Assembly: GCF_024298765.1 (NCBI RefSeq)
Contig: NZ_CP101210.1
DNA length: 64,000 nucleotides
From: Escherichia coli
Lineage (GTDB): Bacteria; Pseudomonadota; Gammaproteobacteria; Enterobacterales; Enterobacteriaceae
Strand: one strand, 5' to 3'
Shown piece by piece: positions 9,736-15,594 of this stretch (its first letter is position 1; each line of letters starts with the position of its first letter). A program made the position numbers and the translations under genes. The notes under the pieces were generated by a model that did no database searches, was not told the DNA's origin, and worked only from the letters and a program-made list of their open reading frames with translations.

Positions 9736-10890
9736 TTACTTCAGACCGGCAGCATCGCGCAGCAGCTGCGCTTTGTCGGTTTTTTCCCACGGGAAATGTT
9801 CGCGACCAAAGTGACCGTATGCTGCGGTTTCTTTGTAGATCGGGTGCAGCAGATCCAGCATCTGAATCAGACCGTATGGACGCAGGTCAAAGAACTCACG
9901 TACCAGCAGAGTCAGTTGTTCAGAAGGCACTTTCTCGGTACCGAAAGTTTCCACCATGATGGAAGTCGGTTCAGCCACGCCAATTGCGTAGGAAACCTGA
10001 ATTTCACAACGATCGGCCAGGCCAGCAGCAACGATGTTTTTCGCGACATAACGTGCTGCGTACGCTGCGGAACGGTCCACTTTTGATGGATCTTTACCAG
10101 AGAATGCACCACCACCGTGACGTGCCATGCCGCCGTAGGTATCAACGATAATTTTACGACCAGTCAGACCGCAGTCACCCATCGGGCCACCGATAACAAA
10201 ACGACCGGTCGGGTTGATGAAGAATTTGGTGGCAGAAGTCAGCCATTCAGCGGGCAGAATCGGCTTGATGATCTCTTCCATTACCGCTTCTTGCAGCGAT
10301 TTCTGGTCGATCTCTTCAGAGTGCTGAGTGGAAAGCACGACAGCATCAATGCCAACGATTTTGCCGTCGTCATACTGGAAAGTCACCTGGCTTTTCGCGT
10401 CCGGGCGCAGCCACGGCAGAGTGCCGTTTTTACGCACTTCAGCCTGACGCTGTACCAGACGGTGTGCATAGGTGATAGGCGCTGGCATCAGCACGTCGGT
10501 TTCATTGGTTGCGTAGCCAAACATCAGACCCTGGTCACCCGCGCCCTGTTCCAGCGGATCGGCACGGTCAACGCCCTGGTTGATGTCAGGAGACTGTTTG
10601 CCGATAGCGCTCAGAACCGCACAGGAGTTAGCGTCAAAGCCCATGTCGGAATGCACATAGCCAATTTCGCGAACGGTGTTACGGGTGATCTCTTCGATGT
10701 CTACCCAGGCGCTGGTGGTGATTTCGCCGCCAACTAAAACCATGCCGGTTTTTACGTAGGTTTCGCAAGCAACGCGTGCTTTCGGATCCTGTTCGAGGAT
10801 CGCGTCTAAAACGGCATCAGAGATTTGGTCAGCAATTTTGTCAGGATGCCCTTCAGAGACGGACTCGGACGTAAAAAGGTGTTTTGCCAT
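9736..10890 (-). CDS. metK: S-adenosylmethionine synthetase MetK (384 aa)
   Basis: ORF 9736..10902 trimmed to [18 protein letters not shown]. Confidence 0.95.
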
Positions 10891-10930
10891 ATTTAATATC
10901 ACCTAAAGAGAATTTGGTTAGCTCAAACTG

Positions 10931-11197
10931 TTGTGTGGATTTTCTGTGGTAGCGGATCCTACCACGACTCTGCAGGTTAAAAACACTGGCAGTCTGAGTG
11001 TTAATCGGTATGGATGGATTAACATCTGGATGGCTATTTTAGGTCAATTCTTCACCCGATTTCCACTTTTTTTTGAATCGTGTCTCATTCTGTTAAAAAC
11101 GTGGCTGGAAATTTTTCCTGACAATGCTGGCATTCTGCGTATTTATCTTTTGCAATTTTCTGCCATTGTGGGGTATAAAACGCGGCGCGCGGCTTAA
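10931..11197 (+). CDS. yqgD: Small hypothetical ORF at the position of K-12 yqgD; coding status doubtful
   Basis: 88-aa ORF in the metK upstream region; position only, no recognisable domain. Confidence 0.25.
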
Positions 11198-11409
11198 ATA
11201 AAAAGCACACGACGTTTCTTTCGTGTTGCCACTTCCAGCCGGGTTGAAAACAGAGTTTTGGCTTGTGGGTTCGTCTTAACAGGCGGCCGTGGAGGTGATA
11301 CGAAATAATGAACCGTTGTCTGCTGCTTAACCTGTCTCACCGTTCTGGTGAAGATTCGTTCCCCGCACTCTGCATCTCTGCTTTGCATACCTGCCGATGT
11401 TATACCCAT
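11194..11409 (-). CDS. yqgC: Small hypothetical ORF at the position of K-12 yqgC; coding status doubtful
   Basis: 71-aa ORF; position only. Confidence 0.25.
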
Positions 11410-11544
11410 CTCGGCGCTTCTCAGGATTCAAGAGCTGGTTACAGCTACTGAGGACTGAACAAGGGCGCTCTTGTAAAAACAAGAGTTTTCTCGTGGTTTC
11501 GCCGAACTGTCACACTTACGTTCGGTTATGTGCTTAATAATGTT

Positions 11545-11676
11545 ATGAAAAAGAAACCGGTTGCGCAGTTGGAGCGTCAGCATTCACTGCTGGAAAATCC
11601 ATGTGCTTATGGGTTGTTATCGCAGTTCCAGGCTGCGATAGTCGTTAACTGTTTTACACTTAATAAAATAATTTGA
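11545..11676 (+). CDS. yqgB: Small protein YqgB (43 aa) just upstream of speA
   Basis: atgaaaaagaaaccggttgcgcag... translates [43 protein letters not shown], matching recalled YqgB; below the ORF-track size cut-off. Confidence 0.6.
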
Positions 11677-11684
11677 GGTTCGCT

Positions 11685-13661
11685 ATGTCTGACGACATGT
11701 CTATGGGTTTGCCTTCGTCAGCGGGCGAACACGGTGTACTACGCTCCATGCAGGAGGTTGCAATGAGCTCCCAGGAAGCCAGCAAGATGCTGCGTACTTA
11801 CAATATTGCCTGGTGGGGCAATAACTACTATGACGTTAACGAGCTGGGCCACATTAGCGTGTGCCCGGACCCGGACGTCCCGGAAGCTCGCGTCGATCTC
11901 GCGCAGTTAGTGAAAACTCGTGAAGCACAGGGCCAGCGTCTGCCTGCACTGTTCTGTTTCCCACAGATCCTGCAGCACCGTTTGCGTTCTATTAACGCCG
12001 CGTTCAAACGTGCGCGGGAATCCTACGGCTATAACGGCGATTACTTCCTCGTTTATCCGATCAAAGTTAACCAGCACCGCCGCGTGATTGAGTCCCTGAT
12101 TCATTCGGGCGAACCGCTGGGCCTGGAAGCCGGTTCCAAAGCGGAGTTGATGGCGGTGCTGGCACATGCTGGCATGACCCGTAGCGTCATCGTCTGCAAC
12201 GGTTATAAGGACCGCGAATATATCCGCCTGGCATTAATTGGCGAGAAGATGGGCCACAAGGTCTATCTGGTCATTGAGAAGATGTCAGAAATTGCCATTG
12301 TGCTGGATGAAGCAGAACGTCTGAATGTCGTTCCTCGTCTGGGCGTGCGTGCACGTCTGGCTTCGCAGGGCTCGGGTAAATGGCAGTCCTCCGGCGGGGA
12401 AAAATCGAAGTTCGGCCTGGCGGCGACTCAGGTACTGCAACTGGTTGAAACCCTGCGTGAAGCCGGGCGTCTCGACAGCCTGCAACTGCTGCACTTCCAC
12501 CTCGGTTCGCAGATGGCTAATATTCGCGATATCGCGACAGGCGTTCGTGAATCCGCGCGTTTCTATGTGGAACTGCACAAGCTGGGCGTCAATATTCAGT
12601 GCTTCGACGTTGGCGGCGGTCTGGGCGTGGACTATGAAGGCACCCGTTCGCAGTCCGACTGTTCGGTGAACTACGGCCTCAATGAATACGCCAACAACAT
12701 CATCTGGGCGATTGGTGATGCGTGTGAAGAAAATGGTCTGCCACATCCGACGGTAATCACCGAGTCGGGTCGTGCGGTGACTGCGCATCACACCGTGCTG
12801 GTGTCGAATATCATCGGCGTGGAACGTAACGAATACACGGTGCCGACCGCGCCTGCAGAAGACGCACCGCGCGCCCTGCAAAGCATGTGGGAAACCTGGC
12901 AGGAGATGCACGAACCGGGAACTCGTCGTTCTCTGCGTGAATGGTTACACGACAGCCAGATGGATCTGCACGATATTCATATCGGCTACTCTTCCGGCAC
13001 CTTTAGCCTGCAAGAACGTGCATGGGCAGAACAACTCTATCTGAGCATGTGCCATGAAGTGCAGAAGCAACTGGATCCGCAAAACCGTGCGCATCGTCCG
13101 ATTATCGACGAGCTGCAGGAACGTATGGCTGACAAAATGTACGTCAACTTCTCGCTGTTCCAGTCGATGCCGGACGCATGGGGGATCGACCAGTTGTTCC
13201 CGGTTCTGCCGCTGGAAGGGTTGGATCAAGTGCCGGAGCGCCGCGCTGTGCTGCTGGATATTACCTGTGATTCTGACGGTGCTATTGATCACTACATCGA
13301 TGGTGATGGTATTGCCACGACAATGCCAATGCCGGAGTACGATCCAGAGAATCCGCCGATGCTCGGTTTCTTCATGGTCGGCGCATATCAGGAGATCCTC
13401 GGCAACATGCACAACCTGTTCGGTGATACCGAAGCGGTTGACGTGTTCGTCTTCCCTGACGGCAGCGTAGAAGTAGAACTGTCTGACGAAGGCGATACCG
13501 TGGCGGATATGCTGCAATATGTACAGCTCGATCCGAAAACGTTGTTAACCCAGTTCCGTGATCAAGTGAAGAAAACCGATCTTGATGCTGAACTGCAACA
13601 ACAGTTCCTTGAAGAGTTCGAGGCAGGTTTGTACGGTTATACCTATCTTGAAGATGAATAA
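11685..13661 (+). CDS. speA: Biosynthetic arginine decarboxylase SpeA (658 aa)
   Basis: ORF 11673..13661 trimmed to [19 protein letters not shown]. Confidence 0.95.
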
Positions 13662-13678
13662 TTAAGATTATTCCGCTG

Positions 13679-13720
13679 GCGGGTCGATTTATTTACGTAA
13701 ATCGGCCCGCTTTCTTTTTA
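13679..13720 (+). terminator. Rho-independent terminator after speA
   Basis: 13-bp stem gcgggtcgattta / taaatcggcccgc, loop tttacg, then tttcttttta. Confidence 0.6.
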
Positions 13721-13806
13721 TATATTCTTAAAAATAATTTAGCTGCTTTTCTTATTAAATAATCTCCCTACAATCGCTGCATTAATTAAATGCAGAGGGA
13801 ACGGTT

Positions 13807-14538
13807 ATGAAAAAAGGGAAAGTACGTAGCGCGTTGATAGCATTAGCCGTGCTGCTGGCCGGTTGTTCCAGTAATGCGCAGTATAATAGCAGTGCATCAG
13901 GCAATGTCGGCACCGCCTGGGGTGGGGATGTGCACTCAACGGTTCAGGGCGTATCTGCTGAGCGAGCTTGGCGCGATCCGGCAGAGATGATCGTTATTAG
14001 TTATTCGACGACTGTTCCTTCGGGCTACGACCGCGTTTATAGCATTCGTATTAACGAACTTGAATATGCTATTCGCGATGGTAATTTTAATTCTCTACCT
14101 ATTACGCGGGTTTATGATTCGTCAAATAATGAACCACGCTATATTGTCCATGCCAGAGTAGGAATGAATTATCAATTATATGTCCGCAATTACAGTCGTA
14201 ACACCAACTACGAGATCGTTGCTACGGTTGATGGCCTGGATGTGCTGAACGGCAAGCAAGGTTCGCTGAATAACAACGGCTATATTGTGAATGCCGGAGA
14301 TTCGTTAGCGATTAAAGGATTCCGCAAAGATAAACATACCGAAGCGGCTTTTCAGTTCGCCAACGTTGCTGATTCCTACGCAGCCAATTCGGCGCAAGGC
14401 GATGTGCGTAATACCGGTGTAATCGGCTTTGCCGCCTTTGAATTACAAGGCCCGGCGCAAAACGCGCTGCCGCCGTGCTCTGGACAAGCCTTTCCGGCAG
14501 ATAACAATGGCTATGCGCCGCCACCGTGTCGGAAATAG
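13807..14538 (+). CDS. Putative outer-membrane lipoprotein of unknown function (243 aa); candidate accessory gene
   Basis: ORF begins MKKGKVRSALIALAVLLAGCSS: a signal peptide with lipobox LLAG|C and Ser at +2. Mature part is Asn/Ser/Tyr/Gly-rich with two C-terminal Cys. Central portion looks AT-rich. Its own SD (gagggaa) and flanking terminators. Confidence 0.7.
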   Translation: MKKGKVRSALIALAVLLAGCSSNAQYNSSASGNVGTAWGGDVHSTVQGVSAERAWRDPAEMIVISYSTTVPSGYDRVYSIRINELEYAIRDGNFNSLPITRVYDSSNNEPRYIVHARVGMNYQLYVRNYSRNTNYEIVATVDGLDVLNGKQGSLNNNGYIVNAGDSLAIKGFRKDKHTEAAFQFANVADSYAANSAQGDVRNTGVIGFAAFELQGPAQNALPPCSGQAFPADNNGYAPPPCRK

Positions 14539-14603
14539 CAACCTCGCTTGATGCCTCGCCCATTTAAGGCGATAATTAGCACAAAATTGTGTTTCGCAAA
14601 TCC

Positions 14604-14646
14604 AACCCTTCCTCGTCGGGCCTAACGACGCGGAAGGGTTTTTTTA
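14604..14646 (+). terminator. Rho-independent terminator between the lipoprotein ORF and speB
   Basis: Hairpin cccttcctcgtcg...cgacgcggaaggg followed by ttttttta. Confidence 0.55.
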
Positions 14647-14673
14647 TATCGACTTTGTAATAGGAGTCCATCC

Positions 14674-15594
14674 ATGAGCACCTTAGGTCATCAATACGAT
14701 AACTCACTGGTTTCCAACGCCTTTGGTTTTTTACGCCTGCCGATGAACTTCCAGCCGTATGACAGCGATGCTGACTGGGTGATTACTGGCGTGCCGTTCG
14801 ATATGGCCACTTCTGGCCGTGCGGGGGGGCGCCACGGTCCGGCAGCGATCCGTCAGGTTTCGACGAATCTGGCCTGGGAACACAACCGCTTCCCGTGGAA
14901 TTTCGACATGCGTGAGCGCCTGAACGTGGTGGACTGCGGTGATCTGGTATATGCCTTCGGCGATGCCCGTGAGATGAGCGAGAAGCTGCAGGCACACGCC
15001 GAGAAGCTGCTGGCTGCCGGTAAGCGTATGCTCTCCTTCGGTGGTGACCACTTTGTTACGCTGCCGCTGCTGCGTGCTCATGCGAAGCATTTCGGCAAAA
15101 TGGCGCTGGTACACTTTGACGCCCACACCGATACCTATGCGAACGGTTGTGAATTTGACCACGGCACCATGTTCTATACCGCGCCGAAAGAAGGTCTGAT
15201 CGACCCGAATCATTCCGTGCAGATTGGTATTCGTACCGAGTTTGATAAAGACAACGGCTTTACCGTGCTGGACGCCTGCCAGGTGAACGATCGCAGCGTG
15301 GATGACGTTATCGCCCAGGTGAAACAGATTGTGGGTGATATGCCGGTTTACCTGACCTTTGATATCGATTGCCTGGACCCTGCATTTGCACCAGGCACCG
15401 GTACGCCGGTAATTGGCGGCCTGACCTCCGATCGCGCCATTAAACTGGTACGCGGCCTGAAAGATCTCAACATCGTTGGGATGGACGTAGTGGAGGTGGC
15501 TCCGGCATACGATCAGTCGGAAATCACCGCTCTGGCAGCGGCGACGCTGGCGCTGGAGATGCTGTATATTCAGGCGGCGAAAAAGGGCGAGTAA
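14674..15594 (+). CDS. speB: Agmatinase SpeB (306 aa)
   Basis: ORF 14674..15594; translation [23 protein letters not shown]... matches recalled SpeB. Confidence 0.95.

What the first reader, a model, noticed from the sequence alone, without database searches (positions are those of the whole stretch)
13662..14673. Single-gene insertion between speA and speB encoding an uncharacterised outer-membrane lipoprotein
As I recall K-12, speA and speB are separated by only about 140 bp. Here the spacer is about 1 kb and holds a 243-aa ORF (13807..14538) with a textbook lipoprotein signal (LLAG|C, Ser at +2, so probably outer-membrane targeted). It has its own SD, an upstream speA terminator (13679..13720) and a downstream terminator (14604..14646), so it looks like an independent unit. 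The mature protein is Asn/Ser/Tyr/Gly-rich with two C-terminal Cys and no domain I recognise, and its central portion is AT-rich. That pattern fits a horizontally acquired accessory gene in a conserved polyamine locus.
Basis: partly seen in the sequence, partly recalled or inferred. Interest (0 to 1): 0.6.

Follow-up and report, generated by a model that had tools for sequence, protein, structure and literature searches.

The report
Ancestral lipoprotein gene lost in K-12
The extra gene between speA and speB is a real, well-conserved outer-membrane lipoprotein gene of unknown function. It is ancestral to E. coli and its relatives and was deleted in the K-12 lineage, so it is not a foreign insertion in this strain.

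Summary
Window 13807..14538 (+) encodes a 243-aa protein with a lipoprotein signal (LLAG|C, Ser at +2). It lies between a strong speA terminator and a second hairpin just upstream of speB. K-12-type genomes have only a 137-bp spacer here.

The "horizontally acquired insertion" reading does not hold.
- The orthologue sits at the same place, directly after speA, in E. albertii, E. whittamii and cryptic Escherichia clades (95% aa identity).
- It is also there in Salmonella, Citrobacter, Klebsiella, Kluyvera, Kosakonia, Phytobacter, Intestinirhabdus and Entomohabitans (76-53%).
- The flanking signals are orthologous, and dN/dS is 0.06-0.13.
- GC is about 49% in every genus.
- There are no mobility genes, flanking repeats, or phage or defence matches.

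In 5,426 complete E. coli genomes the gene is present in 3,556. A single 61-bp replacement allele (K-12, B, O103:H2) is present in 1,867. The gene is therefore ancestral and K-12 carries a one-off deletion.

The protein belongs to a large proteobacterial family (about 2,900 clusters at 50% identity). The family has no Pfam, NCBIfam or PDB relative and no conserved gene neighbours. A confident AlphaFold model is all-beta, and its only non-family fold relatives are fungal DUF7918 models.

My best guess is a dispensable, Lol-sorted, periplasm-facing binding module. The function remains unknown, and the finding is ordinary.

The parts
11685..13661 (+). speA (biosynthetic arginine decarboxylase, 658 aa), the upstream neighbour
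   Evidence: ORF list; RefSeq annotation of identical or near-identical loci; 94-99.7% aa identity to the speA genes that flank the orthologues in other genera.
13678..13721 (+). speA intrinsic terminator: 15-bp stem, 4-nt loop, T-run
   Evidence: Terminator scan. Folds at -23.4 kcal/mol, z = -5.1. Orthologous hairpin with compensatory changes in Salmonella, Citrobacter, Klebsiella, Kluyvera, Phytobacter and Kosakonia. Absent from the K-12-type allele.
13769..13774 (+). Candidate -10 box (TACAAT) of the lipoprotein gene's own promoter; no good -35
   Evidence: In the upstream alignment the position is conserved as TACAAT, TACTAT, TACACT or TATTAT in Escherichia, Salmonella, Citrobacter, Klebsiella and Kluyvera. 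It was not picked up by the sigma-70 consensus scan. Inferred; no transcription start data.
13777..13795 (+). Short 5'-leader hairpin (CTGCATT/AATGCAG) abutting the Shine-Dalgarno GAGGG (13795..13799)
   Evidence: Folds at -7.9 kcal/mol, z = -2.6 in E. coli. Salmonella and Phytobacter have hairpins there, but RNAalifold finds no consensus structure over 11 genera. Weak, possibly incidental.
13807..14538 (+). [not shown]
   Evidence: ORF. Annotated 'hypothetical protein', 'lipoprotein' or 'membrane protein' in RefSeq. dN/dS 0.06-0.13. 289 homologues and 2,915 clusters at 50% identity.
13807..13866 (+). Type II (lipoprotein) signal peptide and lipobox LAG|C; Cys20 codon at 13864..13866
   Evidence: Sequence. 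Cys is at least 90% conserved in 97 homologues. A lipobox is recognisable in 88 of 97, and none has Asp at +2.
13903..14451 (+). All-beta globular core, residues 33-215 (about 14 strands), carrying the family motifs LGTxWGE and YEIVATVDGLDVLNGKPGS...GFRK...AAFxF...NxGVIG
   Evidence: AlphaFold2 model with pLDDT 88.4 and pTM 0.79; most 10-residue blocks of the core score 93-99. Invariant and near-invariant columns.
14452..14535 (+). Low-confidence C-terminal tail with the conserved motif (A/Q)FPxD...YAxPP, bracketed by Cys224 and Cys241 in enterobacterial members
   Evidence: pLDDT 54-60. Motif found in 63 of 97 homologues; two C-terminal Cys in only 23 of 97 (alignment).
14548..14576 (+). speB promoter-like site TTGATG-17-GATAAT. 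It belongs to speB, not to the lipoprotein gene.
   Evidence: Promoter scan. The CTTGA and GCGATAAT blocks are conserved across Escherichia, Citrobacter, Kluyvera and Klebsiella; Entomohabitans keeps only the -10 (GCGATAAT). K-12-type genomes retain them as TTGAAT and GGTGATAAT.
14604..14647 (+). Terminator hairpin plus T7, ending about 27 nt before the speB ATG. It serves as terminator for the lipoprotein gene here and for speA in K-12.
   Evidence: Inverted repeat. Folds at -24.4 kcal/mol. Near-invariant in seven genera and present in the K-12 allele. A Term-seq RNA 3' end maps 30 nt upstream of speB in K-12 (PMC7815308 supplement).
14674..15594 (+). speB (agmatinase, 306 aa), the downstream neighbour
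   Evidence: ORF list; RefSeq annotation.

Best explanation
**What it is.** This is a vertically inherited, single-gene unit of the Enterobacteriaceae chromosome. It is not an acquired island. Its ancestral position is directly after speA. About a third of sequenced E. coli, including K-12 and B, have lost it. In those genomes one shared event replaced about 940 bp (the speA terminator, the gene, and the first 61 nt after its stop codon) with a 61-bp stretch that still provides a speB promoter.

**How the product most likely works.**
- *Shown from sequence:* the precursor has a type II signal peptide with lipobox LAG|C.
- *Inferred from established lipoprotein biology:* it is exported by Sec, acylated and cleaved by Lgt, LspA and Lnt at Cys20, and handed to the Lol system. 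Position +2 is Ser, never Asp in this family, so it should end up in the inner leaflet of the outer membrane.
- *Shown by model and alignment:* a short flexible linker follows (11-60 residues across the family), then a compact all-beta domain of about 180 residues with a strongly conserved polar and aromatic motif set, then a disordered tail with a conserved FPxD...YAxPP motif.
- *Inferred, weakly:* the domain acts as a binding module for an envelope component or a periplasmic protein, not as an enzyme in a pathway. It is dispensable under many conditions.

The position next to speA and speB is most likely historical and carries no functional meaning.
For: **Ancestral position**
- The orthologue lies directly after speA, and immediately before speB except in Salmonella, in Salmonella, Citrobacter and Klebsiella.
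- The same holds in E. whittamii, two cryptic Escherichia species, Citrobacter (3 species), Kluyvera, K. spallanzanii, Intestinirhabdus, Phytobacter, Kosakonia and Entomohabitans; in E. albertii the contig ends inside the gene, so only speB after it is shown.
- The flanking non-coding signals are orthologous.

**Selection and composition**
- dN/dS is 0.07-0.08 against other Escherichia species, 0.13 within E. coli, and 0.055 against Salmonella.
- GC is 46-53% in all genera.

**Population split**
- The gene is in 3,556 genomes and the 61-bp allele is in 1,867, which leaves only 3 of 5,426 genomes with neither.
- The 61-bp allele is at least 95% identical in every carrier, which points to one origin.
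- The flanks of K-12-type and O157-type genomes differ by a normal 1.6%.

**Lipoprotein features:**

**Structure:**

**Stand-alone nature**
- No neighbour is shared between clades in 80 loci from 33 genera.
- Long homologues carry only low-complexity linkers and no extra Pfam domain.

**Dispensability:** natural loss in 34% of genomes, plus an IS1 insertion in strain SCU-316.
Against: - The function is not demonstrated by anything here. There is no Pfam, NCBIfam or PDB relative and no literature on it.
- The promoter is inferred from a conserved -10 only.
- The 61-bp K-12 stretch does not align to the ancestral sequence above chance. It is only 40-56% identical to the equivalent stretch of any genus. 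'Simple deletion' is therefore too simple, and the event's mechanism is unresolved.
- Three enterobacterial-type homologues lie near arginine or polyamine genes (speA/speB; speG; an ADI-family gene), which leaves room for a functional link.
Confidence: 0.75

Rival explanations
1. One reading: a horizontally acquired accessory gene inserted into an originally 140-bp speA-speB spacer.
For: The gene is absent from K-12 and from 34% of E. coli genomes. Its GC and GC3 (0.49 / 0.47) are lower than those of its neighbours (0.55-0.56 / 0.64-0.66). It matches no known domain.
Against: It is present at the same place, directly after speA, across the genus Escherichia and at least eight other genera, with identities that follow phylogeny. 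Flanking terminator and promoter elements are orthologous. All orthologues share the same composition. There are no flanking repeats, integrase, tRNA or IS, and no phage or defence match. Every empty-site genome carries the same 61-bp allele, as expected for a single derived loss.
Confidence: 0.03
2. The lipoprotein is functionally tied to arginine or polyamine metabolism at the envelope. It could, for example, tether or modulate envelope-associated SpeA, or bind agmatine or putrescine. On this view its place beside speA (and speB in most genera) is maintained by selection.
For: The gene directly follows speA in at least 10 enterobacterial genera, even where other DNA has been inserted nearby; in Salmonella an island separates it from speB but not from speA. 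A 40%-identical homologue in Trabulsiella lies two genes from speG, which matches NF011709 at 392 bits. Another homologue, on a metagenome contig, follows an amino-acid permease and a PF02274 (ADI-family) gene. The O157 proteome table I read lists SpeA as periplasmic.
Against: None of the non-enterobacterial loci sampled from about 25 genera (of 80 loci from 33 genera in all) has a speA, speB, speG or ADI homologue within 6 kb. Contexts there are unrelated: metJ/priA, the his operon, RHS toxins, recO. The gene is insulated from speA by a strong terminator and appears to have its own promoter. K-12 makes putrescine normally without it (established knowledge). The three associations were noticed after the fact.
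Confidence: 0.1
3. It is a proteinaceous inhibitor or immunity-type lipoprotein. On this view it is a beta-sandwich that blocks an exogenous envelope-targeting enzyme, as MliC/PliC-type lysozyme inhibitors or orphan type VI immunity proteins do.
For: It is a small, OM-anchored, all-beta domain on a tether. It stands alone, is patchily retained and is dispensable. One homologue lies just downstream of a PAAR-RHS toxin and its small partner gene.
Confidence: 0.08
4. It is a decaying or spurious ORF with no function.
For: It has been lost without obvious cost in a third of E. coli. Truncated versions exist in Shigella dysenteriae and some E. coli. I found no expression data.
Against: dN/dS is 0.06-0.13, with full-length intact orthologues in 14 of 14 taxa examined. 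Motifs are strongly conserved across four proteobacterial classes. The structure prediction is confident.
Confidence: 0.02

Closest known systems
[not shown]
   Different: Nothing differs at the gene level. None of these entries carries a function. The only literature hit for any of these tags is an off-target list in a PNA paper (PMC3928365).
Tethered outer-membrane lipoproteins with a globular periplasmic domain, such as LpoB, Pal and NlpD-class proteins (established knowledge).
   Same: The layout matches: type II signal peptide, Lol-compatible +2 residue, flexible linker of variable length (11-60 residues across the family), then a folded domain.
   Different: There is no sequence or fold relationship to any of them. 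NCBIfam hits to ActS, Lpp, LptM and the RpoE-regulated lipoprotein cover only the signal peptide and score far below cut-off. The partner or ligand is unknown.
DUF7918 (a fungal domain of unknown function) and MATH/TRAF-type beta-sandwiches.
   Different: No Pfam HMM, DUF7918 included, matches any of 97 + 24 family members with E <= 0.001. Sequence identity is 9-22%. The PDB matches are below the level normally taken as homology. DUF7918 itself has no known function and no literature.
Genomic islands inserted in the speA-speB interval, such as the GntR / mannitol dehydrogenase / sugar-acid gene block in Salmonella.
   Same: The same interval is a rearrangement hot spot. Salmonella carries extra genes after the lipoprotein gene. 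Citrobacter freundii and C. gillenii have about 140 extra bp, and Intestinirhabdus has an insert between the hairpin and speB.
   Different: The lipoprotein gene is the conserved resident of the interval and not one of the variable inserts.

Membership tests
Bacterial lipoproteins (Lgt/LspA/Lnt substrates) | N-terminal signal peptide with a positive n-region, a hydrophobic h-region and a lipobox [LVI][ASTVI][GAS]C | tested here: met
   MKKGKVRSALIALAVLLAG|C: 4 K/R, hydrophobic core, L-A-G-C. Cys is at least 90% conserved among 97 homologues. A lipobox is present in 88 of 97, and several of the other nine have near-lipobox variants.
Bacterial lipoproteins (Lgt/LspA/Lnt substrates) | Actual lipid modification and signal peptidase II cleavage | not testable with these tools
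   Needs globomycin sensitivity, palmitate labelling or mass spectrometry.
Lol-sorted outer-membrane lipoproteins (the +2 rule of Enterobacteriaceae) | No Asp at position +2 after the lipidated Cys | tested here: met
   Ser at +2 and Ser at +3. Among 88 homologues the +2 residue is S, A, T, Q and so on, never D. Localisation itself was not tested.
Horizontally acquired genomic islet | Absent from the orthologous site in sister species and outgroups | tested here: not met
   Present directly after speA in the other Escherichia species found and in at least 8 other genera, and immediately before speB in all of them except Salmonella.
Horizontally acquired genomic islet | Composition atypical for the host and unlike that of the orthologues | tested here: not met
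   GC 0.49 and GC3 0.47 are below the highly expressed neighbours, but GC is much the same (0.46-0.53) in all 14 orthologues.
Horizontally acquired genomic islet | Mobility signatures: integrase or IS, tRNA target, flanking direct or inverted repeats | tested here: not met
   None in the ORF list or the repeat search. No PHROG or PADLOC family reaches significance.
speAB operon member | Co-transcription with speA and/or speB without intervening terminators | tested here: inconclusive
   Strong hairpin terminators lie on both sides and a conserved -10 sits upstream, which argues for an independent unit. Read-through cannot be excluded without RNA data.
DUF7918 / MATH-like beta-sandwich superfamily | Significant match to the family HMM or a solved structure | tested here: not met
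   [not shown]
Named enterobacterial lipoprotein families in NCBIfam (ActS, Lpp, LptM, RpoE-regulated lipoprotein) | Score above the curated cut-off over the mature domain | tested here: not met
   12.5-14.7 bits against cut-offs of 27.7-375. The matches cover residues 1-49 only, which is the signal peptide plus the first ~30 residues of the mature protein.

The most novel reading that the evidence does not exclude
The lipoprotein could be an envelope component of arginine, agmatine or polyamine physiology. For example, it could be an outer-membrane-anchored partner of envelope-associated SpeA, or a polyamine or agmatine binding and sensing module. On this reading its retention next to speA for the whole history of the Enterobacteriaceae is selected, as is the placement of two divergent homologues beside speG and beside an ADI-family gene plus a permease. 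K-12, the model organism for polyamine biology, would then have been studied without a native part of the system.
Probability: 0.08. Interest if true: 0.6.

Novelty: new member of a known kind. Interest (0 to 1): 0.25.

Why it matters
This corrects an easy mistake. A gene that K-12 lacks looks 'accessory' or 'acquired', yet here K-12 is the odd one out. Two thirds of E. coli and most relatives carry a conserved envelope lipoprotein that the reference strain has lost, so it has escaped study.

The family is large (about 2,900 clusters at 50% identity across Proteobacteria). It is under strong purifying selection, models confidently, and has no Pfam, NCBIfam or PDB counterpart. That makes it a reasonable but unexceptional target for characterising 'dark' envelope proteins.

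For annotation purposes the practical result is this: call it a conserved outer-membrane lipoprotein of unknown function, not an island.

Tried and rejected
1. **Domain and family searches.** None gave a match beyond the signal peptide.
   - Pfam on the protein, on 97 homologues and on 24 long homologues
   - NCBIfam, PHROGs and PADLOC
   - A profile search against PDB sequences
3. **Guilt by association.** I called and clustered ORFs in 80 loci from 33 genera, and no neighbour was shared between clades. BLAST with SpeA, SpeB, SpeG, ADI and a permease found hits only in Enterobacteriaceae and Trabulsiella. Extra contexts were the his operon, RHS toxins and recO.
4. **A conserved 5'-leader structure for the gene.** Individual hairpins exist in E. 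coli, Salmonella and Phytobacter, but RNAalifold finds no consensus pairs over 11 genera, so I dropped this.
5. **Mobile-element signatures.** None. The 9-nt TTTTTATAT shared after both terminators does not correspond to the K-12 junction.
6. **Deriving the K-12 61-bp stretch from the ancestral sequence.** Local alignment to both strands of 13662..14600 scores 28, against shuffles of 24.4 +/- 3.2. A microhomology-deletion model through ATTTAG does not reproduce the K-12 sequence. Import of a long foreign segment is unlikely because flank divergence is normal. The origin is unresolved.
7. **Rfam.** Nothing over 10800..15000 at E <= 1.
Full report
**1. What is in the sequence.** Window 13662..14673 lies between speA (11685..13661) and speB (14674..15594), both on the + strand.

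It contains one credible ORF, 13807..14538. The ORF has an ATG start, GAGGG 7 nt upstream, and 243 codons.

- The product begins MKKGKVRSALIALAVLLAG|CSS. That is a textbook type II signal peptide: four K/R residues, a hydrophobic core and the lipobox L-A-G-C, with Ser at +2.
- The mature protein is rich in Ala, Asn, Ser, Gly and Tyr. It has two further Cys residues near the C-terminus, at 224 and 241.
- Upstream, 13678..13711 plus a T-run is called a terminator by the consensus scan. It folds at -23.4 kcal/mol, z = -5.1.
- Downstream, 14604..14640 plus seven T is a 15-nt-arm inverted repeat. It folds at -24.4 kcal/mol, z = -4.8.
- GC falls to 0.38-0.41 in the middle of the ORF.

**2. The presence/absence polymorphism is real.**

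- A 1.5-kb query spanning the region matched 5,425 of 5,426 complete E. coli genomes, but only 3,542 over its full length.
- The ORF alone is in 3,556 genomes, and in 3,550 of them over at least 80% of its length.
- K-12-type genomes have speA and speB 137 bp apart.
- The first 61 bp of that spacer is a sequence peculiar to the empty allele. It occurs in 1,867 genomes, always once and always at 95% identity or more. Carriers include W3110, NCM3722, XL1-Blue, a B derivative and an O103:H2 strain.
- The two alleles together account for 5,423 of 5,426 genomes.
- A few genomes carry damaged copies, for example an IS1 insertion in strain SCU-316 and a split copy in 23CRST038.

**3. Direction of the change: loss, not gain.**

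*Synteny.* The orthologue lies directly downstream of speA in Salmonella, where a GntR / sugar-acid gene block follows it in place of speB. It also does so in Citrobacter freundii and Klebsiella aerogenes. A scan of one genome per GTDB species found it between speA and speB in these taxa:

| Taxon | Amino-acid identity to the window protein |
|---|---|
| E. whittamii, two cryptic Escherichia species, a divergent 'E. coli' | 95% |
| E. albertii (contig starts inside the gene; speB follows) | 95% |
| K. spallanzanii | 76% |
| Three Citrobacter species | 72-73% |
| Intestinirhabdus | 67% |
| Kluyvera | 66% |
| Phytobacter, Kosakonia | 58% |
| Entomohabitans | 53% |

*Flanking signals.* The non-coding signals on both sides are orthologous too.
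- The speA terminator is present in all of these, with compensatory stem changes.
- A -10-like box (TACAAT, TACTAT or TACACT) sits at a fixed place upstream of the gene.
- The speB promoter-like site and hairpin follow the gene.

*Selection and composition.*
- dN/dS is 0.13 within E. coli, 0.07-0.08 against other Escherichia (dS about 0.32) and 0.055 against Salmonella.
- GC (0.46-0.53) and GC3 (0.42-0.59) are much the same in all 14 orthologues. The AT-rich centre is therefore a feature of the gene and not a sign of recent import.

*Mobility.* There are no flanking repeats or mobility genes, and no PHROG or PADLOC match.

The gene is therefore ancestral at this site, and the K-12 state is derived.

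**4. The K-12 allele is not a clean deletion.**

- The last 76 bp before speB, which contain the hairpin, are identical in the two alleles.
- The preceding 61 bp of the K-12 spacer keep a -35/-10 pair (TTGAAT-17-GATAAT) where the ancestral allele has TTGATG-17-GATAAT.
- Otherwise those 61 bp do not align to the ancestral sequence better than shuffled controls (28 against 24.4 +/- 3.2).
- They are only 40-56% identical to the equivalent stretch of any genus examined. That is more distant than E. coli is from Klebsiella there.
- Flanking divergence between a K-12-type and an O157-type genome is an ordinary 1.6%, so no long foreign segment came in with the stretch.

I could not determine where the 61 bp came from. 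The uniformity of the allele argues for a single event.

**5. The 'downstream terminator' belongs to speB's leader.** The promoter-like site (14548..14576) and the hairpin (14604..14647) are present with or without the lipoprotein gene.

- The hairpin is almost invariant in Escherichia, Citrobacter, Kluyvera, Klebsiella, Intestinirhabdus and Entomohabitans.
- K. spallanzanii carries one compensatory C>T / G>A change in the stem.
- The surrounding spacer is only about 60% conserved.
- Term-seq data for K-12 place an RNA 3' end 30 nt upstream of speB, in the hairpin's U-tract (Adams et al. 2021, PMC7815308, supplement).
- A transcript starting at that promoter would meet this terminator about 60 nt later.

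This looks like an attenuator or a short RNA and may be worth separate study. Rfam has nothing there.

**6. What the protein is.**

*Family size and annotation.*
- It has 289 homologues in the 90%-clustered database.
- In the exhaustive search it has 2,915 clusters at 50% identity with E <= 1e-3, and 874 with E <= 1e-10.
- Members span gamma-, beta-, alpha- and deltaproteobacteria, including Providencia, Proteus, Acinetobacter, Pseudomonas, Neisseria, Kingella, Variovorax, Ralstonia, Paracoccus, Inquilinus and myxobacteria.
- All are annotated 'hypothetical', 'lipoprotein' or 'outer membrane lipoprotein'.

*Conserved features*.
- A 97-sequence alignment shows a conserved Cys.
- A variable linker follows (11-60 residues, median 24).
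- The family motifs are LGTxWGE, YEIVATVDGLDVLNGKPGS, GYxL, IxGFRK, AAFxF, SYAA and NxGVIGxAxF.
- The tail motif FPxD...YAxPP is present in 63 of 97.
- Asp never occupies +2.
- Longer homologues differ only by long Pro/Ala-rich linkers and have no extra Pfam domain.

*Structure.*
- AlphaFold2 with this alignment gives pLDDT 88.4 and pTM 0.79.
- The all-beta core spans residues 33-215 with about 14 strands, and most of its blocks score 93-99.
- The tail is low-confidence.
- AFDB50 returns only family members.

**7. Context gives no function.** In 80 loci from 33 genera, no neighbouring gene family is shared between clades.

- speA and speB flank the gene only in Enterobacteriaceae.
- Elsewhere it sits by metJ/priA in Providencia (identities inferred from gene order and sizes).
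- In Variovorax it lies inside the histidine operon, between hisD and hisC.
- Other contexts are after a PAAR-RHS toxin and next to recO.
- In Acinetobacter it is a tandem pair.

Two observations keep a polyamine link alive at low probability.
- A 40%-identical homologue in Trabulsiella lies between ynfD and ynfC, two genes from speG.
- Another, on a metagenome contig, follows an amino-acid permease and a PF02274 (ADI-family) gene.

I noticed both after the fact, and the many other contexts do not support them.

**8. Most likely mechanism.**

- *Shown:* the coding sequence is under purifying selection and carries a lipoprotein signal.
- *Inferred from established lipoprotein biology:* Sec export, Lgt/LspA/Lnt maturation at Cys20, and Lol transfer to the inner leaflet of the outer membrane, because +2 is not Asp.
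- *Inferred from the model:* a compact beta-sandwich-type domain on a short tether, with a conserved polar and aromatic surface motif set and a conserved flexible tail. This is the anatomy of a binding module and not of a pathway enzyme.
- *Inferred from natural history:* the gene is dispensable in many niches, having been lost in 34% of E. coli, interrupted by IS1 in one genome, and truncated in Shigella dysenteriae.

**9. Verdict.**

The lipoprotein, the independent unit and the polymorphism are right. The insertion and horizontal-transfer claims are not supported.
- This is an ordinary, already-annotated, uncharacterised gene. Its main lesson is that K-12 is the deviant here.
- Interest is low to moderate. 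It comes from the size of the uncharacterised family, the unexplained 61-bp replacement, and the strikingly conserved promoter-plus-terminator in front of speB.

Noticed in passing
window 14548..14647: A promoter-like site (TTGATG-17-GATAAT) is followed about 27 nt later by a strong terminator hairpin plus T7, ending about 27 nt before the speB ATG. Both are near-invariant across seven enterobacterial genera and in the K-12 allele, while the spacer between them is only about 60% conserved. K. spallanzanii has one compensatory stem change. Term-seq in K-12 shows an RNA 3' end 30 nt upstream of speB (PMC7815308 supplement). This could be an attenuator or a short RNA of about 60 nt. Rfam has no match.
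   Followed up: partly
L001 1763..1823 (K-12-type spacer; the equivalent of window 13662..14599): The 61-bp stretch that replaces the gene in 1,867 E. coli genomes keeps -35 and -10 hexamers. Otherwise it does not align to the ancestral sequence above chance, and it is only 40-56% identical to the equivalent stretch in any genus examined. Its origin is unexplained.
   Followed up: partly
L003/L004 6886..12732 (Salmonella enterica): In Salmonella the lipoprotein gene stays next to speA. A block of genes (a GntR regulator, mannitol dehydrogenase, a Zn-dependent alcohol dehydrogenase, an Ldh_2-family protein, DUF386 and more) follows it, and speB is not within the 6 kb fetched downstream. The interval is a rearrangement hot spot.
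   Followed up: no
L011 5594..8498 (Trabulsiella guamensis); L093 672..4376 (metagenome contig): A second, 40%-identical subfamily of the lipoprotein lies between ynfD and ynfC, two genes from speG. A related copy follows an amino-acid permease and an ADI-family (PF02274) gene. Together with speA/speB, that makes three arginine or polyamine neighbourhoods, which may be coincidence.
   Followed up: partly
L097/L098 2983..9347 (Variovorax-type contigs): In Comamonadaceae the homologue, plus a 115-aa ORF, is embedded in the histidine operon between hisD and hisC, with gaps of about 10-35 nt. There it appears to be co-transcribed with housekeeping biosynthetic genes.
   Followed up: no
L081 4842..6612 (Acinetobacter bereziniae): Two tandem paralogues of the lipoprotein (261 and 253 aa) lie on the same strand. 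I checked the tandem arrangement only in this locus.
   Followed up: no
H7 = NZ_CP054371.1 3847698..3849974; H20 = NZ_AP045810.1: Natural knock-outs exist. In strain SCU-316 an IS1 transposase is annotated in the speA-speB interval, and the match spans 2,277 bp instead of 1,501. In strain 23CRST038 the region is split into two places.
   Followed up: no
L005/L017 downstream of the gene (Citrobacter freundii, C. gillenii); L024 (Intestinirhabdus alba): About 140 bp of extra, GC-rich and partly palindromic sequence sits between the speB promoter-like site and the hairpin in two Citrobacter species. A different insert of about 170 bp sits between the hairpin and speB in Intestinirhabdus. They look like small repeat-element insertions.
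   Followed up: no
L022 (record titled Chryseobacterium sp. 18061); L076 (record titled Mycobacterium sp. KBS0706): Homologues at 64% and 39% identity occur on contigs labelled as a Bacteroidota and an actinobacterial genome. Given that the family is otherwise proteobacterial, these are probably mislabelled or contaminated assemblies.
   Followed up: no
window 13777..13799: A small hairpin (CTGCATT/AATGCAG, -7.9 kcal/mol, z = -2.6) abuts the Shine-Dalgarno sequence of the lipoprotein gene. Salmonella and Phytobacter have hairpins at the same place whose 3' arm overlaps the SD, but there is no consensus structure across 11 genera.
   Followed up: yes
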